A stretch of 64,000 nt of DNA from Candidatus Vogelbacteria bacterium RIFOXYD1_FULL_46_19 (GTDB lineage Bacteria > Patescibacteriota > Minisyncoccia > Phycocordibacterales > XYD1-FULL-46-19), in NCBI GenBank assembly GCA_001824825.1, contig MHTK01000006.1, positions 127,842 through 191,841 of the forward strand. The letters run 5' to 3'. The notes under the pieces were generated by a model. The model saw only the letters and a program-made list of their open reading frames with translations, had not been told where the DNA came from and did not search any database. The position numbers were made by a program, and so were the translations under genes. Shown piece by piece: positions 43,310 through 55,259 of this stretch. Within the stretch, counting starts at the first letter, position 1. Each line of letters starts with the position of its first letter.

Positions 43310-44113
43310 ATGAAAAAAATCTCCAGTGCTCAAATTGTGGCCACTCTCGGACCGGCTTCCAGTGACCCTGTACTTTTAGCGAGAATGATCGACTCCGGTC
43401 TCGACGCAGTCCGCCTTAATTTTTCTTGGGGTACTTTAGACGAACACGCGGCTTACATTGAAGCTGTCCGCCAGCTGGCTCCCACGCTACCAATTATTGG
43501 TGATTTACCAGGTCCTCGAGTCCAACAGGGAGATGGTCATTCTTTTGATAACAACCAGCCGGTATTAACGGCTCGTGACCGGGACTTCATTACTTTTGCC
43601 GCCGAGCAGGGTCTAGACTACTTGGCCCTTTCTTTTATTACTAACGCCGGCGATATGGCCCAGGCTAAAGAATTGATCAGAGCGGCCGGCAGTCAGGCGC
43701 GCGTCATTGCTAAAATTGAACGAGCTGAGGCTTTATTAAACTTACCAGAAATTATAGCCGTCTCGGATGCAGTAATGGTGGCTCGAGGCGACTTAGGCGA
43801 TAATATTCCGGTCGAGACCTTGCCGTTTGTGACAGTGGAAATAATTGAGGCTACTCGAGCCGCCGGCAAACCCGTCATCACGGCGACGGAAATGCTATCA
43901 TCAATGGTTAACTCCCCACGGCCAACCCGGGCCGAAGTGACCGATATTGCTTACGCTATTACCAATGGCTCGGACGCCTTGATGCTTTCGGAAGAAACGG
44001 CTACCGGTCATTACCCTTTAGAAGCAATCACTATGATGGAAAAAATTATCATTGAAGCCGAGCACCGTAGCGCCGGTAAGCACGAAGCGGTCAACCGACT
44101 CACTCGGGTCTAA
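43310..44113 (+). CDS. Pyruvate-kinase-like TIM-barrel-only protein (lacks lid B domain and C-terminal domain; catalytic Lys substituted)
   Basis: Collinear with the A-domain of host pyk (IVATLGPAS, VRLNFSWG, MVARGDLG, GKPVITATEMLSSM). The approximately 100-aa B domain is replaced by 20 aa. No C domain. DLPGPK to DLPGPR and LQKMII to VTVEII. Confidence 0.7.
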   Translation: MKKISSAQIVATLGPASSDPVLLARMIDSGLDAVRLNFSWGTLDEHAAYIEAVRQLAPTLPIIGDLPGPRVQQGDGHSFDNNQPVLTARDRDFITFAAEQGLDYLALSFITNAGDMAQAKELIRAAGSQARVIAKIERAEALLNLPEIIAVSDAVMVARGDLGDNIPVETLPFVTVEIIEATRAAGKPVITATEMLSSMVNSPRPTRAEVTDIAYAITNGSDALMLSEETATGHYPLEAITMMEKIIIEAEHRSAGKHEAVNRLTRV

Positions 44114-44148
44114 CAACTATATTCCTTTACTGGCTTACGCTTTTTAGA

Positions 44149-45429
44149 TTAGAAACCCAGTTCACTCCGACTAGCGAAGGCCCCCTCTGACCCCAGCTCT
44201 TCTTCAATTCTAAGGAGTTGATTGTATTTAGCAGTGCGTTCGCCCCGGCACACTGAGCCGGTTTTAATTTGCCCACAGGCGAGACCCACCGCGAGATCCG
44301 CAATGGTCGTATCCTCAGTTTCGCCTGAGCGATGAGACATAATAGTTCGCCAGCCGGCGGCCTGAGCTGCTTTCACCACGGCCATCGTTTCAGTTAGGGT
44401 GCCGATTTGATTGGGTTTAATTAAAATCGCATTAGCGGTCTGACCTTCTATGGCTTTAGTCAAACGCTCCAAATTGGTGACCAATAAGTCGTCACCTACT
44501 ATTTGTATTTTTGACCCGAGCACCTTAGTCATCTGTCCGAAATTATCCCAATCATCTTCCGCTAAACCATCCTCAATTGAAACTATAGGGTACTTATTGA
44601 TCCAGGTTTGATACAACTCCATCATTTCAGACGCCTCAAGCGACCTGCCTTCCGATTTAAGTAGGTACTGCCCGTCTTGATAAAACTCGGTCGCTGCCAC
44701 GTCGAGAGCGAGCCCTACCTCCTCACCCGGCTTAAAACCAGCCTGACTGATTGCCTCCATTAAAAGCTCTAGCGCTACCTCATTGGTAGGTAAAATCGGA
44801 GCAAAACCACCTTCATCCCCCACGGTTGTATTAAGCCCCCGACCTTTTAGTATGTCTTTTAACGCTTGAAAAACCTCTACCCCCACCCGGAGAGCTTCCT
44901 GGTAGGTCGGCGCCCTCAGTGGCATAATCATAAACTCCTGTAAGTCGGTTGAATTACTAGCGTGCTGGCCCCCGTTTAAAATATTAATCATTGGTCGAGG
45001 CAAAAGTAGTTTAGTGGTCCCGGCCAGTTCTCCCACGTAGCGATACAGTGGCCAATTAGTCGCCGCGGCAGCCGCTTTGGCAAAGGACAAGGACACCGCC
45101 AAAATAGCGTTAGCCCCTAAGTGGCTTTTATCCGCTGTCCCGTCAAGTTCTATCAGTTTTTTATCTAAACTCTCCACCATCCAAGTCTCACCCACTAGCG
45201 CGGGCGCTATCACCTCATTAATATTTTCCACCACCTGCTTCACTCCCCGGCCCCGGTAACGCTCGCCACCATCTCTAAGCTCTACCGCTTCATGACTACC
45301 AGTGGACGCCCCCGACGGCACCGCTGCCCGCCCCCGACTTCCACCCTCCAGTGTCACATCTACCTCCACCGTCGGCTGGCCGCGCGAGTCCAAAATTTCC
45401 CGACCCTTGATTGAAATTATTTTAAACAA
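44149..45429 (-). CDS. eno: Enolase
   Basis: Full-length enolase with [33 protein letters not shown]. Confidence 0.95.
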
Positions 45430-45598
45430 AATAGATTCACGAGTTACTTTTAATTAACTCACTCTATCACTTAAGCTATCATCCGAGCAAGATTTTTTAA
45501 CATCTTACCCTAAATTAAGTAAAAATCCCCACACCCAATGACGGATGTGGGGAAGCGCGTGTGTGGGTGGACCATTGGTAGGCCCGCCACCAAACTAT

Positions 45599-45624
45599 TG
45601 TACATAAAATCATATTTATGTACA
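45599..45624. promoter_or_regulatory. Perfect 10-bp inverted repeat (TGTACATAAA-N6-TTTATGTACA), operator-like
   Basis: Seen directly. Lies at the left edge of the cassette region. Confidence 0.3.
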
Positions 45625-45832
45625 AGTTTTTAAAGAAGTAAGTTAGATAAAAAGCCAACCAGTCGCGACATCGAGAGGGAATTATTTTTGGAACGAACGA
45701 GCTTATTCATGAGGAGCTACTCGTCTCACGAAACTGTCATACAGGACACAATACCAAGTGGGGTGACTCTGAATATTTGAATAATGCCCCCTCGAGCTGA
45801 CCCTTTGTCCTTTTTCACTCCTTGATATAGAG

Positions 45833-46072
45833 TTAACGAAGTTTGTCCTCCGCCCGCCGAACCAGTTCCGCTAGGGGGACTTGGAGAACATTAGAAAACA
45901 CCATCAACGTTGTGAGAGACCCACACCCCGCCACTTCGTTATTGCTGACAGAGGCTTGGGTCAATCTGCATAATTGGGCCAATTGAACTTGGGTTAGGTT
46001 TTGAGCCTGACGTTCACTTCGAATTACCCGCCCCAAAGCCCTCTTAAGTTCTTTACCCTTTAACTTTTTCAT
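45833..46072 (-). CDS. XRE-family helix-turn-helix transcriptional regulator (79 aa)
   Basis: LTQVQLAQLCRLTQASVSNNE HTH pattern. Confidence 0.6.
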   Translation of the reverse strand: MKKLKGKELKRALGRVIRSERQAQNLTQVQLAQLCRLTQASVSNNEVAGCGSLTTLMVFSNVLQVPLAELVRRAEDKLR

Positions 46073-46229
46073 CCCAACCCTTCCTTTCCGCTCGATTTTT
46101 CTAATTATATTTATATCACATCTAGACTAATTTTCTAGCAACCAAGCTCCCTTCTCATTTTAAGTTAGAGGTATAAAAAAGGAGCCTGCCTATAGCAAGC
46201 TCCAAAAACCCTAGAGTATGTTTAACGTC

Positions 46230-46298
46230 TACACTCCAAAGACTAAAGAACTCCCCTTACAGCAGTGGCTAACCCGAGGACACATAAAACGCTTCATG
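46230..46298 (-). CDS. Possible 22-aa Cys-rich micro-ORF (MKRFMCPRVSHCCKGSSLVFGV) with strong RBS and terminator
   Basis: Manual translation. gagaaaggaggtgaga precedes the ATG. ggagc-ttgctataggcag-gctcc plus tttttt follows. Confidence 0.2.
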
Positions 46299-46439
46299 CT
46301 CTCACCTCCTTTCTCTTTTTATTATATCATAGCTGTCAAGACTGATAGGAATGATGCTTCTTAAAAGTTTAGGGAACTATATTATTAGGTAAAACAAAAA
46401 ACGCCCGCCAACGAAAATCGTTGGAGGGCGGTGATTTGT

Positions 46440-46688
46440 CTAAATCTCCAAAATCTTCATCAAGGAAATTATTACCAGACCTGCTCCAGCGAATCCAGCC
46501 AGGATTTCCAGTGGTCGAAACCTATACTTGATGTCTGGAGTTTCTGGTAAGAAAACCTTTACCACTGCCGCTAGTCCAGAAATGGCCAAGATGACCCAGA
46601 CAAAAACTGGCAACGGAAGGTGGTAAAACAGTGCCACGATGCCTGTAAGTTGTAAAAGACTACAAACAAAGTGTACTAACGCAACCAT
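46440..46688 (-). CDS. Small two-TM membrane protein (cassette cargo)
   Basis: RBS aaaaggagact. Followed by terminator cgcccgccaacgaaaatcgttggagggcg plus T-run. Confidence 0.45.
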   Translation of the reverse strand: MVALVHFVCSLLQLTGIVALFYHLPLPVFVWVILAISGLAAVVKVFLPETPDIKYRFRPLEILAGFAGAGLVIISLMKILEI

Positions 46689-46832
46689 GATTAGTCTCCT
46701 TTTCTCGGTTTAGTTTCTACCCTATTCCTACCACACCATTGTAAATTTGTTAACTTGTTTACACTTGGCTCCGCCGATTAGGTGAAGTGAGAAAATTAGG
46801 GTAAAAGAAAAGGCCCAAGTATTTGGGCCACA

Positions 46833-47333
46833 CTACTCAAGTCCCCAACCTACTAGAGCTGGGAACTTCTTAACCTGAATCTCTCTTGAAGCATGAATGA
46901 CTCTTTTAAGTTGACTGGAGAGTTTTCTGTCTGGTGGAAGATATAAACAAATGATCCCCGACTTATACCAAAGCATCACATTGATCTTTGACTCCAGAGA
47001 TTGGTTTGCAACCTCCCAAACTAAAGAATCAGCGGTGGCTCCTTCTCTGTATTCCCAGATCATTAAAACTGGGGCCAACAGATGATCCGTTAAAAAATAG
47101 TCGAGAACCACTCCAGAACGGTCGGGTCGATAAGACTCTTCTACCCAACCCTTCATCCACTCGCAGTGAAAGGCTTGGCAATTTCTTGGTCTGGTTGGAT
47201 AGATTTGACAAGAGTTTTCGGAACAGAACCGACAAGTCTCGTTCATTCCTTTTTTTAGTTCAGCCACAGCGTGAGTTGTGCAGCAGGCTGTGCAACCACC
47301 GCAGACACGGGTTGGTTTTTGAATTACCGACAC
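46833..47333 (-). CDS. YkgJ-family CxxCxxCC zinc/iron-chelating domain protein (cassette cargo)
   Basis: VCGGCTACCTTHA...CRFCSENSCQ...CQAFHC. GTG start 7 nt after AGGAGGT. Confidence 0.5.
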   Translation of the reverse strand: MSVIQKPTRVCGGCTACCTTHAVAELKKGMNETCRFCSENSCQIYPTRPRNCQAFHCEWMKGWVEESYRPDRSGVVLDYFLTDHLLAPVLMIWEYREGATADSLVWEVANQSLESKINVMLWYKSGIICLYLPPDRKLSSQLKRVIHASREIQVKKFPALVGWGLE

Positions 47334-47507
47334 GAGTATCACCTCCTATCCAGTTACGTTTCTCCCCTATTCCTACCACAACATTGTAGATTTGTTAACT
47401 TGTTTACACTGGGCTCCGCGGGCTCGAGGAAGTGAGAAAATTAAGGTAAAAGAAAACCGCCCAACCTTGAAGCTGGGCGGTCTGATCTGTTGAAAAGCCT
47501 TCCACCA

Positions 47508-47876
47508 CTACCTGCTGGCAAACCCTCCAGGCGACAGCAAAATGAAAACAAAGAATCTGAGTCCTCCCATCGACAACCTCAAGCGTTCGAAAATCCGCTC
47601 TGTCCGCTTTTGGATGTTCGCCCGTCGCGACGGAAAGTCGATTGCTCGAATCTCGATCTCAACGTCGAAATTACTCGGACCATCCTTTTCGTGTCGCTCG
47701 CGGAAGCGGATCTCGAGATCGTGAGCAACCAGCCTGGCCCCGGGTTCCTCGGCCGAGAGTTCCGCGGGAACAATGTCCCAAATTTCCCGATAGAGTGTCC
47801 TCAACAAACGATCAAATTGCTCCGAGTCGATTTTATTGCGGTCGGCTAATACTTCTACAATAGGCATAAGATCACC
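47508..47876 (-). CDS. Tautomerase-superfamily-like protein with N-terminal Pro1 (cassette cargo)
   Basis: The start MPIVEVLADRNKIDSEQFDRLLRTLYREIWDIVPAE parallels 4-oxalocrotonate tautomerase [51 protein letters not shown]. Driven by TTGACA-17-TATAAT at about 48040. Confidence 0.35.
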   Translation of the reverse strand, partial: GDLMPIVEVLADRNKIDSEQFDRLLRTLYREIWDIVPAELSAEEPGARLVAHDLEIRFRERHEKDGPSNFDVEIEIRAIDFPSRRANIQKRTERIFERLRLSMGGLRFFVFILLSPGGFASR

Positions 47877-48225
47877 TCCTCTCCGGTTTCGTTTCTTCCC
47901 CATTTCTACCAGAGTTTGAGGAAAAACAAAAGCACTCTACGCAAATCCACACGAGAGTGCTCTTACCTTGTTACTACTAGCAACAAAGCGTTGGTCCCAG
48001 CAGGACAGCCATGCAGGTCTTCATTTCTATACTTTTTTTATTATATATCTATATAGTATATCTGTCAATAGTTGCTCCGCCACCTGCTGTGCCGGGCTGT
48101 AGCTACAGGCGAAGAATGGGGGTGAATTGAGAAAGTTAAAGTTGAGATAAAAATCTTGCTTATATTAAAAAGACCGGAAGAAATGTTTCTCCCGGTCGCC
48201 CCACAATGGACTAACGAAATGATCG

Positions 48226-48429
48226 CTAGTAGCCTCGATTACGGACCGAAGCATCACGATCCTGACACGCAGCTTCGCGGCCTTGCTCGTGCTCATTGCT
48301 AAATTGCTCTGAGCCGAGCAGTCCGGCGAAACCACCAGATATCGCACCCGTGTTGGGGCTATCCGATTCAGCTTCGTAGCCTTTCTGGAAGCCGTCTGTC
48401 ACATGATCTTCCGGAGTTTCTCGTGCCAT
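48226..48429 (-). CDS. Small acidic protein (67 aa), cassette cargo
   Basis: RBS aagaaaggaggtgatatag-ATG. Confidence 0.4.
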   Translation of the reverse strand: MARETPEDHVTDGFQKGYEAESDSPNTGAISGGFAGLLGSEQFSNEHEQGREAACQDRDASVRNRGY

Positions 48430-48459
48430 CTATATCACCTCCTTTCTTAGAAAATTTCC

Positions 48460-48558
48460 CTACACGAGGGGTGGACGGTGGTCGAAAGGATCGATCTCAA
48501 TCTGATCTAATTCTCCACAAGTAGATCCTCCCTCTGGTGGCATATCCAACGTATTCAT
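48460..48558 (-). CDS. Possible 32-aa peptide with strong RBS (agggaggtgatccaa-ATG)
   Basis: Manual translation MNTLDMPPEGGSTCGELDQIEIDPFDHRPPLV. Confidence 0.25.
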   Translation of the reverse strand: MNTLDMPPEGGSTCGELDQIEIDPFDHRPPLV

Positions 48559-48841
48559 TTGGATCACCTCCCTTGCTAAAAGCAACTTACCCTAAGCCCC
48601 CAGATGAGCTTAAAGTTTGATCTGATCATAATGAAAACTTCATCTGTTGTCAAGGCTGTCGGTAATGCTCCTACAAATTTAACCCCTGTTAATTTGTTAA
48701 CCCTCAGCTCCACCGACTGTTTTACCAAGCCGTAGCCTGGTGGGCTAAGGATGGAGGAAGTGAGAAAGTTGGGGTAAAAGAAAAGACCCTGTTCACCATA
48801 CGGTTACTAAGGGTCTTTGTTTTTTGGAGTGCCTCGGCCGG

Positions 48842-49117
48842 CTACTGAGTCGGCCAATGCGCCAACTGGTCAGGCATCCGCTCAAGTGCGTGGACCGTGT
48901 CCTCATACCACGGGACACTGAGGTCGAAGTCGGGGCACTTGGATTCCTTTTCCCGCGCCAGCTCGTTGGCGGGCTGAAGGTCCCATTCGGAGGGGACCTC
49001 GTCGCCGACGCAGAACCCGGGGCAGTTCGGTTCCTCGATGAAGATGAACGTACCGTTCACCTCGCGAACAAGGCCGCCGCCCTGGGTCGAATAAACCGGG
49101 TAATTCCGTTCCATCAT
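48842..49117 (-). CDS. Hypothetical GC-rich protein (91 aa), cassette cargo
   Basis: Local GC is markedly higher than host. RBS ggaggtagtaagtc-ATG. TTGACA-17-TATACT promoter. Confidence 0.45.
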   Translation of the reverse strand: MMERNYPVYSTQGGGLVREVNGTFIFIEEPNCPGFCVGDEVPSEWDLQPANELAREKESKCPDFDLSVPWYEDTVHALERMPDQLAHWPTQ

Positions 49118-49213
49118 GACTTACTACCTCCATTGGTTGAAATTTTCACTCTATTTACTAGTATAACGTATTATACATTATTTGTCAAGTTCCTATGGTT
49201 TAGCACCACCCCC

Positions 49214-49268
49214 AGGTTCGCCCATCCTACCCACATACAAAAATAACCCCTTATTTCTAGGGTTATTT
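49214..49268. repeat. 55-bp noncoding module, copy A of a near-identical pair
   Basis: aggttcgcccatcctacccacatacaaaaataaccccttatttctagggttattt. Identical module at 52717-52770. Each is immediately followed by a tRNA-end repeat. Confidence 0.7.
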
Positions 49269-49534
49269 TGTGGGGCTCCGCGGGCAGACTCTCCCCCAAC
49301 GAGGGCTGGTACTTTTCCACCTCGCTTCGCTCGTAGAGAAAAGTCTTTCGAGTCCTGACGTGAGTGAAGCAGTTCACTCACTCCCGCGTCGCTCGACATA
49401 CGACAAAAGTCAGAACCTAGGTTCTGACTTTGTCTAGCTCGCTCCGCGGACTGTCTGAAGTGAGAACGTTGGGGTAAAAGAAAAGGGCCAAGCCAGTATT
49501 AAAACTGACCGGCCACAAGTAAACAGTGAGGGAA

Positions 49535-49831
49535 CTAGGGGCTCGAATTGAACGAATCTTGCTCCAAGAAAACGTCCCATTCTCGACCATCAATTACAAC
49601 TTCGAACGGTCCATAGGTCTGTGGTGGTCGGCGAGCCTCTTTTCCCTGAAAAATAACTTGACGCGCAATCTTTGGCGAGTCGAACCATTCCGGACTAGAG
49701 GTAAAAGTGATGGAACCACCCTCCACCTCGGGGTGAGACAAACAACTCACCGAGCCCACCATAGAAACGTGCGTCAATCCTGGTAAGGATGGTGGAATTT
49801 TAACCACCACCGAACCGACAGTTTGAGTCAT
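49535..49831 (-). CDS. Hypothetical protein (98 aa), cassette cargo
   Basis: RBS ggagaggaggtgacgtagt-ATG. Confidence 0.45.
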   Translation of the reverse strand: MTQTVGSVVVKIPPSLPGLTHVSMVGSVSCLSHPEVEGGSITFTSSPEWFDSPKIARQVIFQGKEARRPPQTYGPFEVVIDGREWDVFLEQDSFNSSP

Positions 49832-49932
49832 ACTACGTCACCTCCTCTCCGGTTTTGTTTCTCCTCTATTCCTACCAGATTTTAAGGAAAAAGAAAACCG
49901 CCCTCCAACGGTTTTCGTTGGGGGCGGGATCA

Positions 49933-50463
49933 TCAGATATTGAGAAGCTCGTTAAAACTCTCAAAATTGAGACATTGTAAAGGATCCTCCAATCCGTTAA
50001 GGTACAGATAAACACCCGGATGATCTGCCTCCTCCAACTCCTCCAAAACAATCTCCAATCTCGAGTTCCTGGCCAGAGACTCTGCTAGTTCGCGACCGAA
50101 CTTATCGGTTAAGTAACTGTCAAAGTCTTCAAAGACTTCCCCCTTACATAACAGGTCGCGCAAGGTCACACCGTTGGCTTCCGGAAAGATTGATGAGCAA
50201 ATACCAACAGGAAAGTCGAGCCAGACAGATTTTACTTCCCCTTCATTCACTCGACATACCAAAAGAGGTGGTGAATACGGTTTGCCAAACTTTATTGTCC
50301 CACCAATCAGTACCCGAATCTGAACTCCTTCCGGCTTTGCTGGTAGCCACCGTACATCTGTTACCTCCTTCCAGATGTCGCAGTGAAGTCCTGTAAACTC
50401 CCCCCAACTCATAGCATCTGTGTCAATGTCAGCTTTCATCCTGTAGATCCTTTCATGGTCCAC
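49933..50463 (-). CDS. Hypothetical protein (176 aa), cassette cargo
   Basis: Promoter TTGACT-17-TATTGT. Terminator cccgcccccaacgaaaaccgttggagggcgg plus T-run. Confidence 0.45.
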   Translation of the reverse strand: MDHERIYRMKADIDTDAMSWGEFTGLHCDIWKEVTDVRWLPAKPEGVQIRVLIGGTIKFGKPYSPPLLVCRVNEGEVKSVWLDFPVGICSSIFPEANGVTLRDLLCKGEVFEDFDSYLTDKFGRELAESLARNSRLEIVLEELEEADHPGVYLYLNGLEDPLQCLNFESFNELLNI

Positions 50464-50614
50464 AACTCTGTTTTTTACAATAGCACGTTATTATAACTAA
50501 GTCAACTATTACTCCGCGGGCTCGAGGAAGTGAGAAAATTAAGGTAAAAGAAAACCCCACTCCACCTTTACGGCAAGTAGGGCTTGTCACGTCAACACCC
50601 AAGTAAAATGAGAA

Positions 50615-51109
50615 TCATTTGAGAGGGTGAACGTCCGATCGAACCAAGTCACGAGAGTGGGCGTTGTCCCAAAAGTCGAGAAACTCCATTTGGGCCAGAA
50701 CCCACCCCAACCAACGAGCAAACTTTTCGCCATCTCCTTCCCACGTCATGTACCACATCTCCTGGATCATCCACAGGAGATACCCCAAAGGTGCTGGAGA
50801 AACACACCCTTGATGCCCTGCGCCCAGGGGCTTTAAGTCTGGGTCCCTAAGAAGTAGAGCCACTTTGATTGCTGCCCAGGTTCTGGGATAAAGAAGGGAT
50901 GATTTGTAGATAAAATCCCGCCTCCTCTCATCCCAGTGAACGATAGCATAGGTATCCCTATGTATGACTTCGTCACCGTCGACAGAGCAGACCCTACCGC
51001 ATATTACGCACGGAAACCCATCCTCCACTGAAGATTTTCCGTCTCTTTTGACCATGAGCGGATAACCCTTGGTCTGGTCAAGAGGATTACCACAAACACT
51101 GCAAGCCAT
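50615..51109 (-). CDS. Zinc-ribbon-containing hypothetical protein (cassette cargo)
   Basis: MACSVCGNPL...GFPCVICGRVC, two CxxC pairs. RBS ggagaggaggtgatattt-ATG. Confidence 0.45.
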   Translation of the reverse strand: MACSVCGNPLDQTKGYPLMVKRDGKSSVEDGFPCVICGRVCSVDGDEVIHRDTYAIVHWDERRRDFIYKSSLLYPRTWAAIKVALLLRDPDLKPLGAGHQGCVSPAPLGYLLWMIQEMWYMTWEGDGEKFARWLGWVLAQMEFLDFWDNAHSRDLVRSDVHPLK

Positions 51110-51222
51110 AAATATCACCTCCTCTCCGGTTTCGTTTCTTCCCTATTCCTACCACACCATCGTAAATTTGTTAACAACAAACCCGCCTCGCGACGAGTTT
51201 GTCGTCGGGGCGGGAAATACTT

Positions 51223-51537
51223 CTAGTAAATCCTTTCCCCCTTATGATTGATCAAAAATTCTTCACCGTTAAGAGAAACTCGTGCTTTCCCTTTGTGAAA
51301 GAAACCAACCTTATCAAATCTGCCATCATAAGCAGGACTACCATCGGGATGGATATGAAAAGCTGTGTCTCCCTCCCACACTTCGGCTAATCCTTCGTGA
51401 AAGTGGTCGGTGTAGTCATACCTTTGGGTATAGGCAGGGCTACCATCTGGGTGGATGTGCCACATCTTCTTACCATCACCTGTCCAGGCCAAGTCTTCGT
51501 GAAAGATTCCATGAACTTGTACTTCTTTAACTGTCAT
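51223..51537 (-). CDS. Repeat protein with duplicated HIHPDGSPAY motif (WG-repeat-like), cassette cargo
   Basis: Two copies of HIHPDGSPAY-x-(Q/G)R(Y/F)D. Confidence 0.45.
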   Translation of the reverse strand: MTVKEVQVHGIFHEDLAWTGDGKKMWHIHPDGSPAYTQRYDYTDHFHEGLAEVWEGDTAFHIHPDGSPAYDGRFDKVGFFHKGKARVSLNGEEFLINHKGERIY

Positions 51538-51781
51538 ACCAGGTCATCCCCTTTCCAAAGTTAGAGTTTGGCGTCTGGATATATTTCTAACATATTTAAA
51601 GATAAAGTACATAAGCTACTATATGTACATATTTAGCACCCCGCCGTTAACCCCCGGCTCGCCGACTGTTTTACCAAGCCGAAGCCTAGTTGGCGAAGGA
51701 TGGCGGGAAGTGAAAAAATTGAGGTAAAAGAAAACCGCCGGACGTGTAAGGCCCGGCGGCTCGATAAAAAAACTATGAGTA

Positions 51782-52531
51782 TCAATAAGTGACTCCGAAA
51801 AACTTCGCGAGTCGCAAGAGCCGAGATGCGCGCAGATTTTCCAGCTTCGTACTCAAGCGTCGATGAGAATCTTGGAGCTCGGAGCGCTGATCACGCAAGT
51901 CCTCGATCTTATGAAGCAGGCTCTTGACTTGAATCTGATGGGAGTGCCGAGACTCATCGAGCAAGACTTGCAATTCGTCGACTTGCTGCCGAAGGTTCGA
52001 AGCCTGCACAAAGTGCTTCCGGATTTCCGTGATCAACGCCTCTTTGGCAGTGGTGGCCATTTTTTCCGCTTTGACCGCCGCCTTCACCTCCTCAACTGTG
52101 GCATTCCCGGTCCAATAGCGGCAAAGGAGGTTGGCGTCCGGAACATAACAAGCCACCGATGTCCGCTTCTCGGAGGACGTGAATCGGTCATTACCGATCT
52201 GGACTTCGACCCAGTGGTTGTAGCCGTCGGAGTAAGCTTGCCCGACACGGTCGGAGGGACCGACAAATGGTGCGTGGCCATCTATCACAAGTTTATCCTT
52301 GTCCCACTCCAACGCAATGGTCCCAACCCACGGACGAGAGGAGATGGACGAAGCTACAGCTACCATTCCTCTTTCCCCTTTACGAGGGGTTACTGTAAGC
52401 GAATGGATCGTCTCACCACTCAAGGCACCAACCGGATCACTGGCACCAATAAGGATCATGGGAGGGCATTGGCCATTTCCGTCACACAGACGAAAACTTC
52501 CTACACCGTCGAGACATTTCGAGATCGCGTA
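51782..52531 (-). CDS. GC-rich protein with N-terminal Cys-containing domain and C-terminal coiled coil (cassette cargo)
   Basis: Perfect TTGACA-17-TATAAT promoter at 52650-52678 on the minus strand. C-terminal heptad-like QVDELQVLLDESRH...LRDQRSELQDSHRRL. Confidence 0.45.
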   Translation of the reverse strand, partial: YAISKCLDGVGSFRLCDGNGQCPPMILIGASDPVGALSGETIHSLTVTPRKGERGMVAVASSISSRPWVGTIALEWDKDKLVIDGHAPFVGPSDRVGQAYSDGYNHWVEVQIGNDRFTSSEKRTSVACYVPDANLLCRYWTGNATVEEVKAAVKAEKMATTAKEALITEIRKHFVQASNLRQQVDELQVLLDESRHSHQIQVKSLLHKIEDLRDQRSELQDSHRRLSTKLENLRASRLLRLAKFFGVTY

Positions 52532-52716
52532 CATGATTTTCAACCTTTCTTTCCAGTATCACTGGATAGGCATTCGGCGGCCATCGGCCTCCGAACTATG
52601 CAAACCCTGCACTAGGGGCCAGCCATTACCTAATGGCCAAACTAAACTTATTATATTTCATTAGTTACGCTTTGTCAATAGTGTGTCTTAATTCACTCTT
52701 GAATTGCACTATCCTA

Positions 52717-52770
52717 GGTTCGCCCATCCTACCCACATACAAAAATAACCCCTTATTTCTAGGGTTATTT
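52717..52770. repeat. 55-bp noncoding module, copy B
   Basis: See copy A. Confidence 0.7.
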
Positions 52771-53060
52771 ACGGGCTCCGCGGGCAGACTCTCGAGCTAC
52801 ACTCGCTGGTACTTTTCGTCTCACTCACCTATCGGCTCGCTCTCATCGAAAAATCTTTCTCGTCCTGACGTGAGTGAAGCAGTTCACAAGGCAGGACTCT
52901 TTCCTTACAGGAACTGTACACCTTTTAGCTAAAGTCTTCGCAGGCTCAACTTTAGGCTCAAAAGCTTTTCGAGTCCTGACGGAGGCAGCCCCACTGCCTC
53001 CTCCCGCGGAGCTCAAAAAATCAAAGCCCCCACTTTCGTGAGGGCTAAGATTTTTACGAG

Positions 53061-53133
53061 CTCCGCGGGCAGGACTCGAACCTGCGACCAATCGATTAAC
53101 AGTCGACCGCTCTACCAGCTGAGCTACCGCGGA
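53061..53133 (-). tRNA. tRNA-Asn (anticodon GUU)
   Basis: Folded by hand. Acceptor UCCGCGG/CCGCGGA. D-arm GCUC-AGCUGGUA-GAGC. Anticodon arm GUCGA-CUGUUAA-UCGAU (GUU). T-arm GCAGG-UUCGAGU-CCUGC. Discriminator G. 73 nt. No encoded CCA. Confidence 0.85.
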
Positions 53134-53208
53134 ATGTTTAGTTTTGTAAGAACTATCCAGCCACCATCTTTGATAGCCAGAATGATTGTTACAAGAGCAG
53201 CCGACACA

Positions 53209-53282
53209 CCGCCGACGCGTTCCGGCCTTGCGAAGCTCCAGGTCTTCGCTTCTCACTCCACCAACTGAGCTACCCGTCCGCC
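53209..53282 (-). pseudogene. tRNA-like remnant (5-prime half resembles tRNA-Asn; no valid acceptor or anticodon arm)
   Basis: GGCGGACGGGUAGCUCAGUUGGUGGAGUG resembles the tRNA-Asn 5-prime half, but the remainder does not fold as a canonical tRNA. Confidence 0.3.
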
Positions 53283-53420
53283 ATCGCAAGCTCAGGCGTT
53301 GCGGGCGGGCCGCGGAATATATTATTCTCCAGGAACACGAAAATCATACCAAAAACCGCTAAAATTGCAAAGGGATCAAGCCTTAGGCTAGACCTAAAAA
53401 TCTGCTATAATTGGCCCACT

Positions 53421-55259
53421 ATGTCTAAATCAAAAACCAAATCCCCGACCAAAACTGTGTCCCCCTCATCAAAACATATCTGGGACCTGTCCCCTTTGTA
53501 TCAGAGTGACACTGATCCTAAGATCGAAGCAGATCTCGCCCACTACCACCAACTTTCTTATCAATTCATCGACAAATGGAAAGATCGCACCGATTATTTA
53601 AAATCTCCACATATTTTAAAGGAGGCCTTGCATGACTACGAAGCTTGGCTCGAGGCGGGTGGCTCCTTGGGTGATATCGGCTATTATTTTTCGCTCCGCA
53701 GTGCCCAAGAAGAAAACAATCCGCAGCTGAAAGCCCGCTTAAACCAGCTAACCGACCTAGCCACCAAGATAGAAAATGACGCTCAATTTTTTACCATGCG
53801 CTTGGCCAAAGTACCAGCAGCCGCCCAAAAAAAGTTTTTACATAATAAAATTCTAGCCCACTACCACCACTTCTTAAAAAGATTATTTGATGAGGCTAAA
53901 TACCTCTTGTCCGAGCCGGAAGAAAAAATAATGAATTTGAAGTCAAACCCCGCCCACAGCCAGTGGGTCCAAATGACTTCATCACTACTAGCCAAAGAAA
54001 CTCGCCCCGTTTACGACAAAGATGGCAAACTCAAAAATTTGCCCTTGTCAGAGATCTCGAGCTTAATTTCTCATACTAGCCAAAAAATTCGTGACAAAGC
54101 CGCCGCCGCTATGAATGATATTTTAAGTAGTTTCACTGGCGTGGCCGAAGCCGAAATGAACGCTATTTTACTAAACAAGAAAATTAATGACGAGCTTAGA
54201 TGTTTAAGCCGGCCCGATACGAGTCGCCACCTGTCGGACGACGTAGAAACAGAAGTGGTGGACGCCCTCCTCGTGGCTGTCGAGGGCTTTTTTACCACCA
54301 GCCAGCGTTACTACAAACTTAAAGCCAAACTTTTAGGCAAAAAGAGGCTAGCCTACCACGAGCGCAATGTCCCCTACGGCCAAACGCGAGCCAACTATTC
54401 ATATGAGCAAGCGGTGGAGATAGTTGGGCGAACTTTCCAGAATCTGGACCAGGACTTTTATCGCCACTTTCAAAACTTTGTCGACCGCCGACAAATTGAC
54501 GTTTGGCCAAAGCCTGGTCGGTCAGCCGGGGCCTTTTGTGCCTCCGGCACTCCGAAGGCACCAGTGTACATTTTATTAAACCACACCAACCTACTCTCCG
54601 ATGTCTTAACCTTGGCCCATGAAGCCGGCCACGGTATTAATGATGAGTTTATGAAGACTAGCCAAGGCAGCCTCTATTTTGGTACCCCGCTCGTGACAGC
54701 CGAAGTAGCCAGCACTTTTACCGAGGACTTTGTCCTAACCGAGCTAATGAAATCGGCGGATGACGAAACCCGCTTAGCTTTACAACTAGCCAAATTAAAC
54801 GATGAAATTTCGACAGTGATGCGCCAAGTGGCTGCCTATCGCTTTGAGCAGGAACTCCACCTAGCCTTTCGCACCGAGGGTTATCTCTCATATGAACGTA
54901 TTGGGACTATTTTTACTAAACACATGAAAGCTTATATGGGTCCGGTGGTGGAGCAATCGGTCGGGTCGGGCAACTGGTGGATCTATTGGGGCCACTTCCG
55001 CAGTTTCTTTTACGTTTACTCTTACGCTAGCGGCATTATTATTTCCAAAGCCATGCAGGCTAAAGTAAAAAGTGATCCGGCCTTTATGTCTTATGTTAAA
55101 GACTTTTTACGCGCCGGTAGTTCGGCTACTCCTAGCGAAATTTTTGACCGCCTGGGTATTAATATTCGAGAACCGGCTTTTTGGCAAACTGGTTTAAAAG
55201 AAATTTCCGACCTACTAGTAGACACGGAAAAGTTAGCCAAAAAACTGGAAAAAGTTTAA
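53421..55259 (+). CDS. pepF: Oligoendopeptidase F (M3B family)
   Basis: HEAGHGINDEF zinc motif. Overall M3B length. Confidence 0.9.
   Translation: MSKSKTKSPTKTVSPSSKHIWDLSPLYQSDTDPKIEADLAHYHQLSYQFIDKWKDRTDYLKSPHILKEALHDYEAWLEAGGSLGDIGYYFSLRSAQEENNPQLKARLNQLTDLATKIENDAQFFTMRLAKVPAAAQKKFLHNKILAHYHHFLKRLFDEAKYLLSEPEEKIMNLKSNPAHSQWVQMTSSLLAKETRPVYDKDGKLKNLPLSEISSLISHTSQKIRDKAAAAMNDILSSFTGVAEAEMNAILLNKKINDELRCLSRPDTSRHLSDDVETEVVDALLVAVEGFFTTSQRYYKLKAKLLGKKRLAYHERNVPYGQTRANYSYEQAVEIVGRTFQNLDQDFYRHFQNFVDRRQIDVWPKPGRSAGAFCASGTPKAPVYILLNHTNLLSDVLTLAHEAGHGINDEFMKTSQGSLYFGTPLVTAEVASTFTEDFVLTELMKSADDETRLALQLAKLNDEISTVMRQVAAYRFEQELHLAFRTEGYLSYERIGTIFTKHMKAYMGPVVEQSVGSGNWWIYWGHFRSFFYVYSYASGIIISKAMQAKVKSDPAFMSYVKDFLRAGSSATPSEIFDRLGINIREPAFWQTGLKEISDLLVDTEKLAKKLEKV

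What the first reader, a model, noticed from the sequence alone, without database searches (positions are those of the whole stretch)
49190..49500. Roughly 300-bp noncoding module (copy A) with a tRNA 3-prime-half mimic carrying an inserted hairpin; duplicated at 52700-53060
Both copies contain the identical 55-bp element (aggttcgcccatcctacccacataca...gggttattt), then the tRNA-end repeat. Next comes a block ctggtactttt...aaa(a/g)tctttcgagtcctgacgtgagtgaagcagttcac. In that block TTCGAGTCCTG (the tRNA-Asn T-arm 3-prime half) is followed by a perfect hairpin (gtgagtgaa/ttcactcac) and then TCCCGCG, in the orientation opposite to the real tRNA. A third variant at 52962-53020 reads ttcgagtcctg-ACGGAGGCAG-cccca-CTGCCTCC-tcccgcggagctc. 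These look like recombination sites (attP-like arms with recombinase-binding inverted repeats) or tRNA-derived small RNAs.
Basis: seen in the sequence. Interest (0 to 1): 0.6.

Follow-up and report, generated by a model that had tools for sequence, protein, structure and literature searches.

The report
tRNA-end mimic module marking cassette junctions
The repeated 300-bp non-coding block is real and belongs to a widespread, apparently undescribed family of folded DNA/RNA modules that copy the top half of a neighbouring tRNA and sit where small accessory-gene cassettes pile up behind tRNA genes in ultra-small (CPR) bacteria.

Summary
Copy A (49211-49388) and copy B (52713-52889) are 83% identical and share a 58-nt block at 98%. 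A third unit (52892-53013) lies directly behind tRNA-Asn (53060-53133, minus strand).

Read on the tRNA-sense strand, the 'inverted tRNA half with an inserted hairpin' is the 5' strands of the tRNA acceptor and T stems, separated by a hairpin (hp1). It is followed by CGUCAGGAYUCGAAA, two more hairpins, and a direct repeat of the tRNA 3' end.

Pattern scans and a covariance model found 45 such modules in about 30 other genomes, almost all Patescibacteria. Of these, 26 start 20-62 nt after a tRNA of 12 isoacceptor types. The others lie inside arrays of accessory genes.

All four helices covary strongly, and the pairs are almost purely Watson-Crick. No Rfam family and no paper I found matches.

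No recombinase lies in the window or is shared among the loci. Flanks just beyond the module differ between close relatives.

Best reading (0.45): the modules are folded arms of att-like junctions between integrase-less cassettes integrated in tandem at the tRNA 3' end, recombined in trans. Main rival (0.3): a tRNA-like non-coding RNA.

The parts
53060..53133 (-). tRNA-Asn(GTT). Its T loop, T-stem 3' strand and acceptor 3' strand (53060-53080) form the core sequence X that is repeated through the island.
   Evidence: ARAGORN; Rfam tRNA, 72 bits.
53014..53059 (-). tRNA trailer plus intrinsic terminator. It forms the apex of the long hairpin ('stem B') made by the tRNA 3' end and the start of module B1.
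   Evidence: DNA fold of 52960-53085(-): -51.7 kcal/mol, z = -11.0, 0 of 200 shuffles as stable; RNA fold.
52892..53013 (-). Module unit B1 (type 1). Parts in order: acceptor-5'-strand copy GAGCTCCGCGGG (53003-53014); hp1 (52981-53001); CGTCAGGACTCGAAA (52966-52980); P4; P5 with TGTAA loop; P3 3' strand GAGTCCTG (52892-52899). Only 'CC' of the acceptor repeat remains.
   Evidence: Covariance model R1, 103.3 bits, E = 7e-24. The orthologous copy in L022 is 70% identical with a compensated hp1.
52773..52889 (-). Module unit B2 (type 2, decayed). It has a truncated hp1 (52870-52887), a degenerate P3 5' strand, P4, P5, and the core repeat GAGAGTCTGCCCGCGGAGCCC (52773-52793).
   Evidence: 83% identical to copy A; R1 gives 10.8 bits, E = 0.08.
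52713..52770 (-). 58-nt right-arm block of copy B: a terminator hairpin followed by TATGTGGGTAGGATGGGCGAACC. A TTGACA/TATAAT promoter and the 253-aa gene follow it.
   Evidence: 98% identical to 49211-49268 (D5); sequence.
49272..49388 (-). Module copy A (type 2). Parts in order: CGCGGG (49383-49388); hp1 (49360-49381); CGTCAGGACTCGAAA (49345-49360); P4 with a GCGAAGC apex; P5; core repeat GAGAGTCTGCCCGCGGAGCCCC (49272-49293).
   Evidence: R1, 33.1 bits, E = 7e-6. RNA fold closes CGCGGG with CCCGCG, z = -3.2.
49211..49268 (-). 58-nt right-arm block of copy A. The promoter and the 91-aa gene (48842-49117) follow it.
   Evidence: D5.
49389..49486 (-). Left flank of copy A. It holds the cassette-end motif TTTTCTTTTACCCCAACGTTCTCACTTC, a tRNA-end remnant CAGTCCGCGGAGC (49442-49450), and a terminator hairpin (49398-49440). 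This is a decayed equivalent of the tRNA end plus terminator seen in front of B1.
   Evidence: D2; DNA fold, z = -2.65.
45430..52712 (-). Island of about 11 small co-oriented genes between enolase and the tRNA. Each gene has its own promoter and terminator. Junction motifs with tRNA-end remnants lie at 46769-46813, 47414-47458, 48742-48786, 50512-50556 and 51692-51736.
   Evidence: (D1, D2). The proteins are ORFans apart from a WG repeat and an HTH.

Best explanation
The block is one member of a family of non-coding, structured modules tied to tRNA 3' ends.

Architecture on the tRNA-sense strand, in order:
- a perfect complement of the acceptor 3' strand, often extending into the trailer;
- hairpin hp1, constant in shape and variable in sequence;
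- GU, then CAGGAYUC, which is the T-stem 5' strand extended to pair with the 3' part of the T loop;
- GAAA, a long hairpin P4, then RNAC-N-G;
- a short hairpin P5 with a UGUAA-type loop;
- a direct repeat of the tRNA 3' end (GARUCCUG plus the acceptor 3' strand).

The complement can pair in two ways. Paired with the downstream repeat, it gives a mimic of the tRNA top half. Paired with the real or remnant tRNA end upstream, it gives a Y-shaped junction whose third arm is hp1.

Shown:
- This architecture is conserved with compensatory changes in 45 copies from about 30 genomes.
- It sits directly behind tRNAs of 12 isoacceptor types, or between accessory-gene cassettes behind such tRNAs.

Inferred:
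- In the window, [module]-[core repeat]-[58-nt block] is an attP-like junction (P arm, core, P' arm) between elements integrated in tandem at the T-loop/3'-end core of tRNA-Asn.
- B1 is an old cargo-less unit, resident since before the split from a related species.
- A and B2 belong to a second element type whose two junctions lie about 3.5 kb apart.
- Recombination is carried out by a recombinase encoded elsewhere. It reads the folded tRNA-sense strand (single-stranded DNA) rather than a sequence, in the manner of integron attC sites.
For: - Direct repeats of the tRNA 3' end cluster in the island.
- A and B2 share both arms around the core repeat.
- The family was found by pattern scans: 8 metagenome loci, and 33 genome loci that are nearly all Patescibacteria.
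- Model R1 finds 45 credible copies. Loci L032, L049, L035, L033, L043 and L031 hold 2-4 copies each.
- 26 of 45 copies start 20-62 nt after a same-strand tRNA.
- Covariation: 92.2% of cells paired against 69.6% in shuffles; 266 double-change cells against 72; 0 of 500 shuffles reach this; slid controls give 42-47%.
- Stems are almost purely Watson-Crick: 16 G-U pairs against 1103 standard pairs.
- In tRNA-Ala copies the acceptor complement carries A3-U70 instead of the tRNA's own G3.U70.
- Long near-perfect hairpins run from the tRNA end to the module. For B1, z = -11.
- Most proximal copies lie behind a terminator.
- Truncated and fused units have breakpoints in hp1 or the core (window B1/B2, L034, L040, L047, L027).
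- Sequence just past the core repeat differs between close relatives: L017 vs L019, and L034 vs L038.
- Cargo between modules is typical accessory content: patatin, an ice-binding pilin, PHB depolymerase, a methyltransferase, glyoxalase.
- Core copies in the L049 array carry acceptor sequences of other lineages' tRNA-Asn.
Against: - No recombinase gene lies in the 64-kb window.
- No protein family is shared among the loci.
- No excised circle or empty site was recovered. All metagenome contigs of this organism are one clone at 99.9% identity.
- There were no hits in 2.9 million viral contigs.
- B1 is conserved with the orthologous locus of a species whose flanking gene is only 66% identical. 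It therefore behaves as a resident, selected feature rather than a recent insertion.
- Junction and loop nucleotides are conserved (GAAA, AC-N-G, UGUAA, G.A pairs), and some copies sit inside tRNA operons without terminators (L040, L043, L044). Both fit an RNA as well.
- Classical integrase arm sites conserve sequence, not structure.
- A homologous cassette elsewhere lacks the module.
Confidence: 0.45

Rival explanations
1. The module is a gene for a structured non-coding RNA that mimics the tRNA top half (acceptor stem plus extended T stem, with hp1 replacing the D and anticodon arms). It would be made by read-through or co-transcription with the tRNA and released by the tRNA-processing enzymes. 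It would act at the RNA level, for example as a decoy or partner of enzymes that read the acceptor/T minihelix, or as a processing insulator between the tRNA and downstream genes. On this reading the cassette arrays merely use the same hotspot.
For: - Orientation is always that of the tRNA.
- Unpaired nucleotides and G.A pairs are conserved at junctions and in the P5 loop.
- G-U pairs outnumber A-C mismatches 16 to 9, and 6 to 0 in hp1, which favours the sense strand.
- Copies lie inside tRNA operons between tRNA genes without terminators (L043, L044, L040).
- The orthologous copy is kept over long divergence with compensatory changes.
Against: - About 22 of 27 proximal copies start right after a canonical terminator, with no room for a promoter.
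- G-U pairs make up only about 1.4% of pairs.
- The acceptor complement is a perfect antisense copy that runs into the non-tRNA trailer.
- About 10 of 25 proximal copies lack the 3' acceptor repeat needed to close a tRNA-like stem.
- Truncated and fused copies are common.
- Neither ARAGORN nor the Rfam tRNA model calls the module a tRNA.
Confidence: 0.3
2. The two antisense segments act as a guide, in RNA or single-stranded DNA, that base-pairs with the tRNA gene's 3' end. This would direct a trans-encoded recombinase or nuclease to that site, giving a programmable homing device analogous to bridge RNAs, omega RNAs or group II intron EBS/IBS pairing.
For: - The complement always matches the particular tRNA next to it, across 12 isoacceptor types, including the Y/R covariation in the T-loop part.
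- Module subtypes are shared between different tRNAs, so the core has been retargeted.
Against: - No IS110, TnpB, IscB or reverse-transcriptase gene is adjacent in any locus.
- Both segments are antisense to the same strand, unlike IS110 bridge RNA loops (from my own knowledge of IS621).
- The complement is already paired in cis to the repeat or to the tRNA end.
Confidence: 0.1
3. The blocks are passive scars: decaying duplicates of the tRNA 3' end plus ordinary terminators, left by past integrations, with no function of their own.
For: In the window all three units are partly decayed: B2 is truncated, A has lost one C of the core, and B1 lacks the acceptor repeat. Terminator-like hairpins are abundant in the island.
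Against: The same non-tRNA core (hp1, GAAA, P4, AC-N-G, P5) recurs in 45 copies across several CPR classes and three other phyla, with strong compensatory variation. Scars would not keep structure while sequence turns over.
Confidence: 0.07
4. The perfect hairpin is a palindromic binding site for a dimeric recombinase or repressor.
For: The hairpins are perfect 8-9 bp palindromes at a fixed position.
Against: The hp1 sequence differs in nearly every copy, with GC, AU, CG and UA all seen at the same pair positions. Only the closing G-C pair is constant.
Confidence: 0.03

Closest known systems
tRNA-anchored genomic islands built by serial site-specific integration (for example tycheposon islands of Prochlorococcus; bioRxiv 10.1101/2020.12.28.424599)
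   Same: The island lies next to a tRNA gene. Partial tRNA 3'-end repeats are scattered through it. New elements push older ones outward. Cargo is accessory genes, and many remnants lack an integrase (for the paper; here).
   Different: Tycheposons carry tyrosine recombinase and replication modules, and no structured tRNA-mimic arm is described for them. Here no recombinase is present in any of about 30 loci, the units are 0.15-3.5 kb, and a covarying folded module marks the junctions.
Integron cassette arrays and attC sites
   Same: Arrays of small, mostly co-oriented accessory genes are separated by sites whose secondary structure, not sequence, is conserved. Pairing is almost purely Watson-Crick, as expected for folded single-stranded DNA. 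One fixed strand appears to fold. Cargo-less units exist.
   Different: There is no IntI gene and no attI. The R/L box consensus (RYYYAAC / GTTRRRY) is absent. The anchoring site is a tRNA 3' end. The module is a multi-helix junction, not a single bulged hairpin. Cassettes here carry their own promoters and terminators. Only some junctions carry a module.
tRNA and tRNA-like RNAs (tmRNA tRNA-like domain, YrlA, viral tRNA-like structures)
   Same: The acceptor stem and T stem are identical in sequence to the neighbouring tRNA. The module has the same orientation and sits in the position of a second gene in the tRNA transcription unit.
   Different: There is no D arm, anticodon arm or 7-nt T loop. 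Neither ARAGORN nor the Rfam tRNA/tmRNA models detect it. YrlA gives only 16.6 bits against a threshold of 69. The acceptor copy is a perfect antisense of the 3' strand rather than a copy of the tRNA's 5' strand.
CTX-phage-type folded single-stranded attP and other elements that exploit Xer recombinases
   Same: Two inverted copies of the target site, separated by a stem-loop, fold into a duplex recombination site on one strand. The recombinase is supplied by the host.
   Different: The target here is a tRNA end, not dif. No phage genes are present. This comparison rests on my own knowledge and was not tested.

Membership tests
Integrase-type att sites at tRNA genes | Direct repeats of the tRNA 3' segment flank the integrated DNA | tested here: met
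   CCCGCGGAG occurs 6 times, all in the island. Longer core repeats lie at 49272-49293 and 52773-52793.
Integrase-type att sites at tRNA genes | An integrase gene lies inside or beside the element | tested here: not met
   Pfam listings over the whole window show none. No protein family is shared among the loci. Cargo proteins are not recombinases.
Integrase-type att sites at tRNA genes | Arm regions with conserved sequence repeats for integrase or accessory proteins | tested here: inconclusive
   The 58-nt right arm is 98% identical between copies A and B but is not found in any other locus. The left arm conserves structure, not sequence.
Integron / attC | An IntI tyrosine recombinase with attI next to the array | tested here: not met
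   No recombinase in the window.
Integron / attC | Cassette-end sites that conserve a hairpin structure but not sequence | tested here: met
   Compensatory variation is seen in all four helices.
Integron / attC | R''/R' core motifs RYYYAAC ... GTTRRRY | tested here: not met
   Read directly from the alignments. The conserved strands are TTCGARTCCTG / CAGGAYTCGAA, and GTTCGAR does not fit GTTRRRY.
tRNA / tRNA-like RNA | Cloverleaf recognised by tRNA models | tested here: not met
   ARAGORN finds only the real tRNA. Rfam tRNA matches only 53061-53133.
tRNA / tRNA-like RNA | Acceptor stem closed by the 5' and 3' ends | tested here: inconclusive
   The stem is present in copy A and in about 15 of 25 tRNA-proximal copies. 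It is absent in B1 and about 10 others.
Any Rfam 15 family | A match at or near the family's gathering score | tested here: not met
   Window 44000-54500 and three module regions were scanned. Only hairpin-level noise appeared; the best was sbcD at 27.7 bits against a threshold of 40, on the opposite strand.
IS110 bridge RNA / IS200-IS605 omega RNA | An adjacent DEDD recombinase or TnpA/TnpB gene | tested here: not met
MITE | Terminal inverted repeats and a fixed-length target-site duplication | tested here: not met
   The repeat is a tRNA-end segment of variable length, from 8 to more than 55 nt (L036). No terminal inverted repeats are present.
Intrinsic terminator only | A G+C-rich hairpin followed by a T run, and nothing else conserved | tested here: not met
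   Terminators flank the module (53014-53059, and inside the 58-nt block). The module core has no T run and keeps three further helices.

The most novel reading that the evidence does not exclude
Patescibacteria, and sporadically other phyla, may possess an integron-like gene-capture system anchored on tRNA genes. Its recombination site would be a folded mimic of the tRNA top half that carries its own copy of the target, with cassettes moved by a recombinase that is not linked to the array. Alternatively, the module may be a new class of tRNA-mimic RNA made from tRNA trailers.
Probability: 0.3. Interest if true: 0.85.

Novelty: new variant of a known kind. Interest (0 to 1): 0.72.

Why it matters
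CPR/Patescibacteria have tiny genomes and few recognised mobile elements, so how they gain accessory genes is poorly understood.

This work identifies a conserved folded module at tRNA 3' ends. It recurs at the borders of variable accessory-gene cassettes in many CPR classes. That gives a concrete, searchable marker for their integration hotspots.

It also defines a specific nucleic-acid structure whose partner enzyme can be sought.

- If the structure is the recombination site, it would be a second natural example, after integron attC, of recombination guided by structure rather than sequence.
- If it is an RNA, it would be a new family of tRNA mimics.

Tried and rejected
- Rfam 15 on the window island and on three module regions gave only the tRNA and hairpin-level noise. 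A sub-threshold sbcD match in L038 was not reproduced in the betaproteobacterial copy L036.
- Three viral-contig scans gave no hit.
- BLAST of the betaproteobacterial copy against plasmids matched only the tRNA part.
- All-against-all clustering of ORFs in the loci, to find a linked enzyme, recovered only syntenic housekeeping genes.
- Pfam, PHROGs and PADLOC scans of cassette proteins found no recombinase, transposase or defence hit.
- Look-ups of window proteins, to find strain variants, excised circles or empty sites, returned only one clone. The two odd junctions (L003 left of 53273, L066 left of 51132) are too short to interpret.
- The homologous cassette of the 253-aa gene in another array has no module.
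- I compared the core by eye with hammerhead and other small ribozymes, the RNase P external-guide layout, H/ACA pockets, IS110 bridge loops, group II EBS/IBS order, SRP Alu and single-strand origins. None fits, although the GCGAAGC apex of P4 recalls stable DNA mini-hairpins at single-strand origins (from my own knowledge).
- Seven literature searches found no description of the module.

Full report
**Context**

The window is a contig of an uncultured groundwater bacterium with CPR/Patescibacteria-type gene content. Its only tRNA is tRNA-Asn(GTT) at 53060-53133 on the minus strand.

Between this tRNA and enolase (44149-45429) lies a 7.6-kb island. It holds about 11 small, co-oriented minus-strand genes, each with its own consensus promoter and terminator. 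Nearly all the proteins are ORFans.

**Observation check**

- The 58-nt block is 98% identical between 49211-49268 and 52713-52770.
- The tRNA-end repeat and the following block are 82-84% identical. The two copies align at 83% over 177 nt.
- CCCGCGGAG occurs six times in 64 kb, all inside the island, against about 0.5 expected by my arithmetic. TTCGAGTCCTG occurs only in the tRNA and in the two 'inverted' sites.

Copy B is composite.
- B1 (52892-53013) is a complete unit except for its 3' acceptor repeat.
- B1 is fused at ...GAGTCCTGCC|TT|GTGAA... to unit B2 (52773-52889).
- B2 has lost the acceptor copy and half of the hairpin.

**Re-reading the anatomy**

On the minus strand, which is the tRNA-sense strand, copy A reads as follows:
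- CGCGGG-A;
- hairpin hp1;
- GU-CAGGACUC-GAAA;
- hairpin P4;
- ACC-A;
- hairpin P5;
- A-GAGUCUG-CCCGCGGAGC.

CGCGGG and CAGG are simply the 5' strands of the tRNA's acceptor and T stems. The closing segment is a direct repeat of the tRNA 3' end. The fold therefore closes like the top half of a tRNA (z = -3.2).

The same 5' segments can instead pair with the tRNA end upstream. For B1, a near-perfect long hairpin is formed with the module start by these parts of the tRNA region:
- the T loop;
- the T-stem 3' strand;
- the acceptor 3' strand;
- the trailer and terminator.

hp1 forms the third arm of this junction (DNA fold -51.7 kcal/mol, z = -11.0).

**A widespread family**

- One metagenome scan for the hairpin-split pattern gave the orthologous locus of a related species (L021/L022) and copies behind tRNA-Trp.
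- A genome scan for CGTCAGGAYTCGAAA...GARTCCTG gave 33 loci. About 30 are real, and nearly all come from Saccharibacteria, Paceibacteria, Vogel-, Zambryski-, Collier- and Nomurabacteria. Single hits came from a flavobacterium, a betaproteobacterium and a verrucomicrobium.
- A covariance model built from ten copies finds 45 credible modules. Six loci hold two to four each.
- 26 of the 45 begin 20-62 nt after a same-strand tRNA of 12 isoacceptor types. Three more follow tRNA-Asn genes that ARAGORN misses because they carry an intron. The rest lie 0.2-4 kb further into arrays.
- The acceptor complement and the Y/R position of the T-loop complement always match the local tRNA.

**Structure is what is conserved**

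On the model-fitted alignment, 92.2% of pair cells are standard pairs, against 69.6% after shuffling and 42-47% when the partners are slid. There are 266 double-change cells against 72 in shuffles, and 0 of 500 shuffles reach this. The alignment was fitted to the model, so these numbers lean toward it. However, single-sequence folds recover the same four helices in nearly every copy.

Further points on the pairing:
- Pairs are almost purely Watson-Crick: 16 G-U and 9 A-C against 1103 standard pairs. In hp1 the count is 6 G-U against 0 A-C.
- In tRNA-Ala copies the acceptor complement carries A3-U70 where the tRNA itself has G3.U70. The segment is therefore an antisense copy of the 3' strand, not a duplicate of the tRNA 5' end.
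- Unpaired GAAA, AC-N-G and the UGUAA loop are conserved.

**Link to variable gene content**

- In L032, L049 and L035 the modules alternate with cassettes. These encode a patatin-like lipase, an ice-binding pilin, a methyltransferase and a glyoxalase. In L033 two modules precede a PHB depolymerase gene.
- Between close relatives, homology holds through the tRNA and the module, then breaks right after the core repeat. L017 has 284 bp there where L019 has 1327 bp. L034 has 82 bp where L038 has 843 bp.
- Truncated or fused units have breakpoints in hp1 or in the core. They occur in the window, L034, L040, L047 and L027.
- In L049 the core repeats carry acceptor sequences typical of other lineages' tRNA-Asn.
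- No recombinase is in the window, and none is shared among the loci.

**Interpretation**

In the window, [module A or B2]-[core repeat]-[58-nt block with terminator] has the layout P arm, core, P' arm. That layout is expected at the junction of two elements of one family integrated in tandem at the tRNA T-loop/3'-end core.

B1 is a cargo-less unit of another subtype. It is conserved in the orthologous locus L022 at 70% identity, with a fully compensated hp1.

I therefore favour a DNA-level role: a folded, structure-defined arm of an att-like site, used by a recombinase acting in trans (0.45). Four observations support this:
- the near-absence of G-U pairs;
- perfect palindromes that run into non-tRNA trailer;
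- terminators directly upstream of about 22 of 27 proximal copies;
- frequent truncations.

The recombinase, the single-stranded state and the crossover point are inferred, not shown.

The main rival is a tRNA-mimic RNA (0.3). It is supported by conserved junction nucleotides, by copies inside tRNA operons without terminators (L040, L043, L044), and by long-term retention. A guide function (0.1) and passive scars (0.07) are less likely. The hairpin as a sequence-specific protein site is contradicted.

**Comparison with known systems and novelty**

- The island resembles tRNA-anchored islands built by serial integration, such as tycheposon islands. It also resembles integron arrays in that structure, not sequence, is conserved at junctions.
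- It fails defining features of both: there is no integrase, no IntI/attI, and no R-box motifs.
- No Rfam 15 family matches, and seven literature searches found no description. Absence from these sources is not proof of novelty.
- I rate it a new variant of a known kind (tRNA-linked integration sites). There is a 0.3 chance that it is a distinct cassette-capture system or a new RNA class.

Noticed in passing
window 53140-53313 (-); also L022 2460-2720 (-) and L049 2643-2800 (-): A second kind of module sits on the 5' side of tRNA-Asn. It starts with a direct repeat of the tRNA 5' end (ATTCCGCGG at 53305-53313 and 53129-53137). An inserted hairpin follows, then a D-arm copy (TAGCTCAGTTGGTGGAG), TGA, the hairpin GAAGC...GCTTC, and GCAAGGCC. 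It is conserved in the related species. In L049 it continues into P4/P5-like helices that the covariance model detects (34 bits).
   Followed up: partly
L003 1-170 versus window left of 53273: A contig from another groundwater sample is identical to the window from the peptidase gene up to 53273. It then diverges inside the hairpin of the 5'-side module into an unrelated gene end and terminator. This may be an arrangement without the tRNA-Asn island, or an assembly chimera.
   Followed up: partly
L022 2133-2427 (-): In the related species, tRNA-Asn is interrupted in the anticodon loop by a group I intron (Rfam Intron_gpI, 72 bits, E = 2e-18). L029 and L031 look the same. The window's tRNA-Asn has no intron.
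   Followed up: yes
window 46692-46754, 47337-47399, 47870-47932, 49836-49898, 51113-51175: Five cassettes share a conserved promoter-plus-leader block (GTTAACAAATTTAC..GGTAGGAATAGGG.AGAAAC.AAACCGGAGAGGAGGTGAT) at 63-89% identity. The genes behind it are unrelated. It looks as if unrelated ORFs have been placed into a common expression frame.
   Followed up: no
window 46769-46813, 47414-47458, 48742-48786, 49442-49486, 50512-50556, 51692-51736; L057 about 1460-1530: A cassette-end motif follows the terminators: TTTTCTTTTACCYYAAYTTTCTCACTTC, then a shortened tRNA end (CTCGAG-CCCGCGGAG). Two copies are 100% identical over 45 nt. The same motif, with a different acceptor remnant (TTTGAGACCGTGGAG|TAATA), occurs in an array of another organism that holds a 52%-identical homologue of the 253-aa gene.
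   Followed up: partly
window 48713-48757 and 51662-51706: A further 45-nt repeat (89% identical), CCGACTGTTTTACCAAGCCG.AGCCT.GT.GGC.AAGGATGG.GG, sits at two cassette ends in place of the short tRNA-end remnant. It is unexplained.
   Followed up: no
window 52544-52640 (-); L058 1630-1750: The 253-aa gene has a long leader (about 100 nt) with paired segments (GGCCATTAGGTAATGGCTGGCC..., GGAGGCCGATGGCCGCC). Its counterpart is conserved upstream of the 52%-identical homologue in another metagenome. It may be a cis-regulatory structure.
   Followed up: no
P4 apex of many modules, e.g. window 49322-49334 and 52938-52946: The apex of hairpin P4 often reads (Y)GCGAAGC or TAGCGAA. From my own knowledge, GCGAAGC is an unusually stable DNA mini-hairpin known from single-strand replication origins, and TAGCG(T/A) is the conserved loop of ssoA origins. 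The motif is present in roughly half of the copies.
   Followed up: no
L066 1-309 versus window right of 51132: A 4.8-kb contig from another sample matches the island from 51132 to 46677. Upstream of the shared leader AACCGGAGAGGAGGTGAT it carries unrelated AT-rich sequence. This is either an array variant or a chimera formed at the repeated leader.
   Followed up: no
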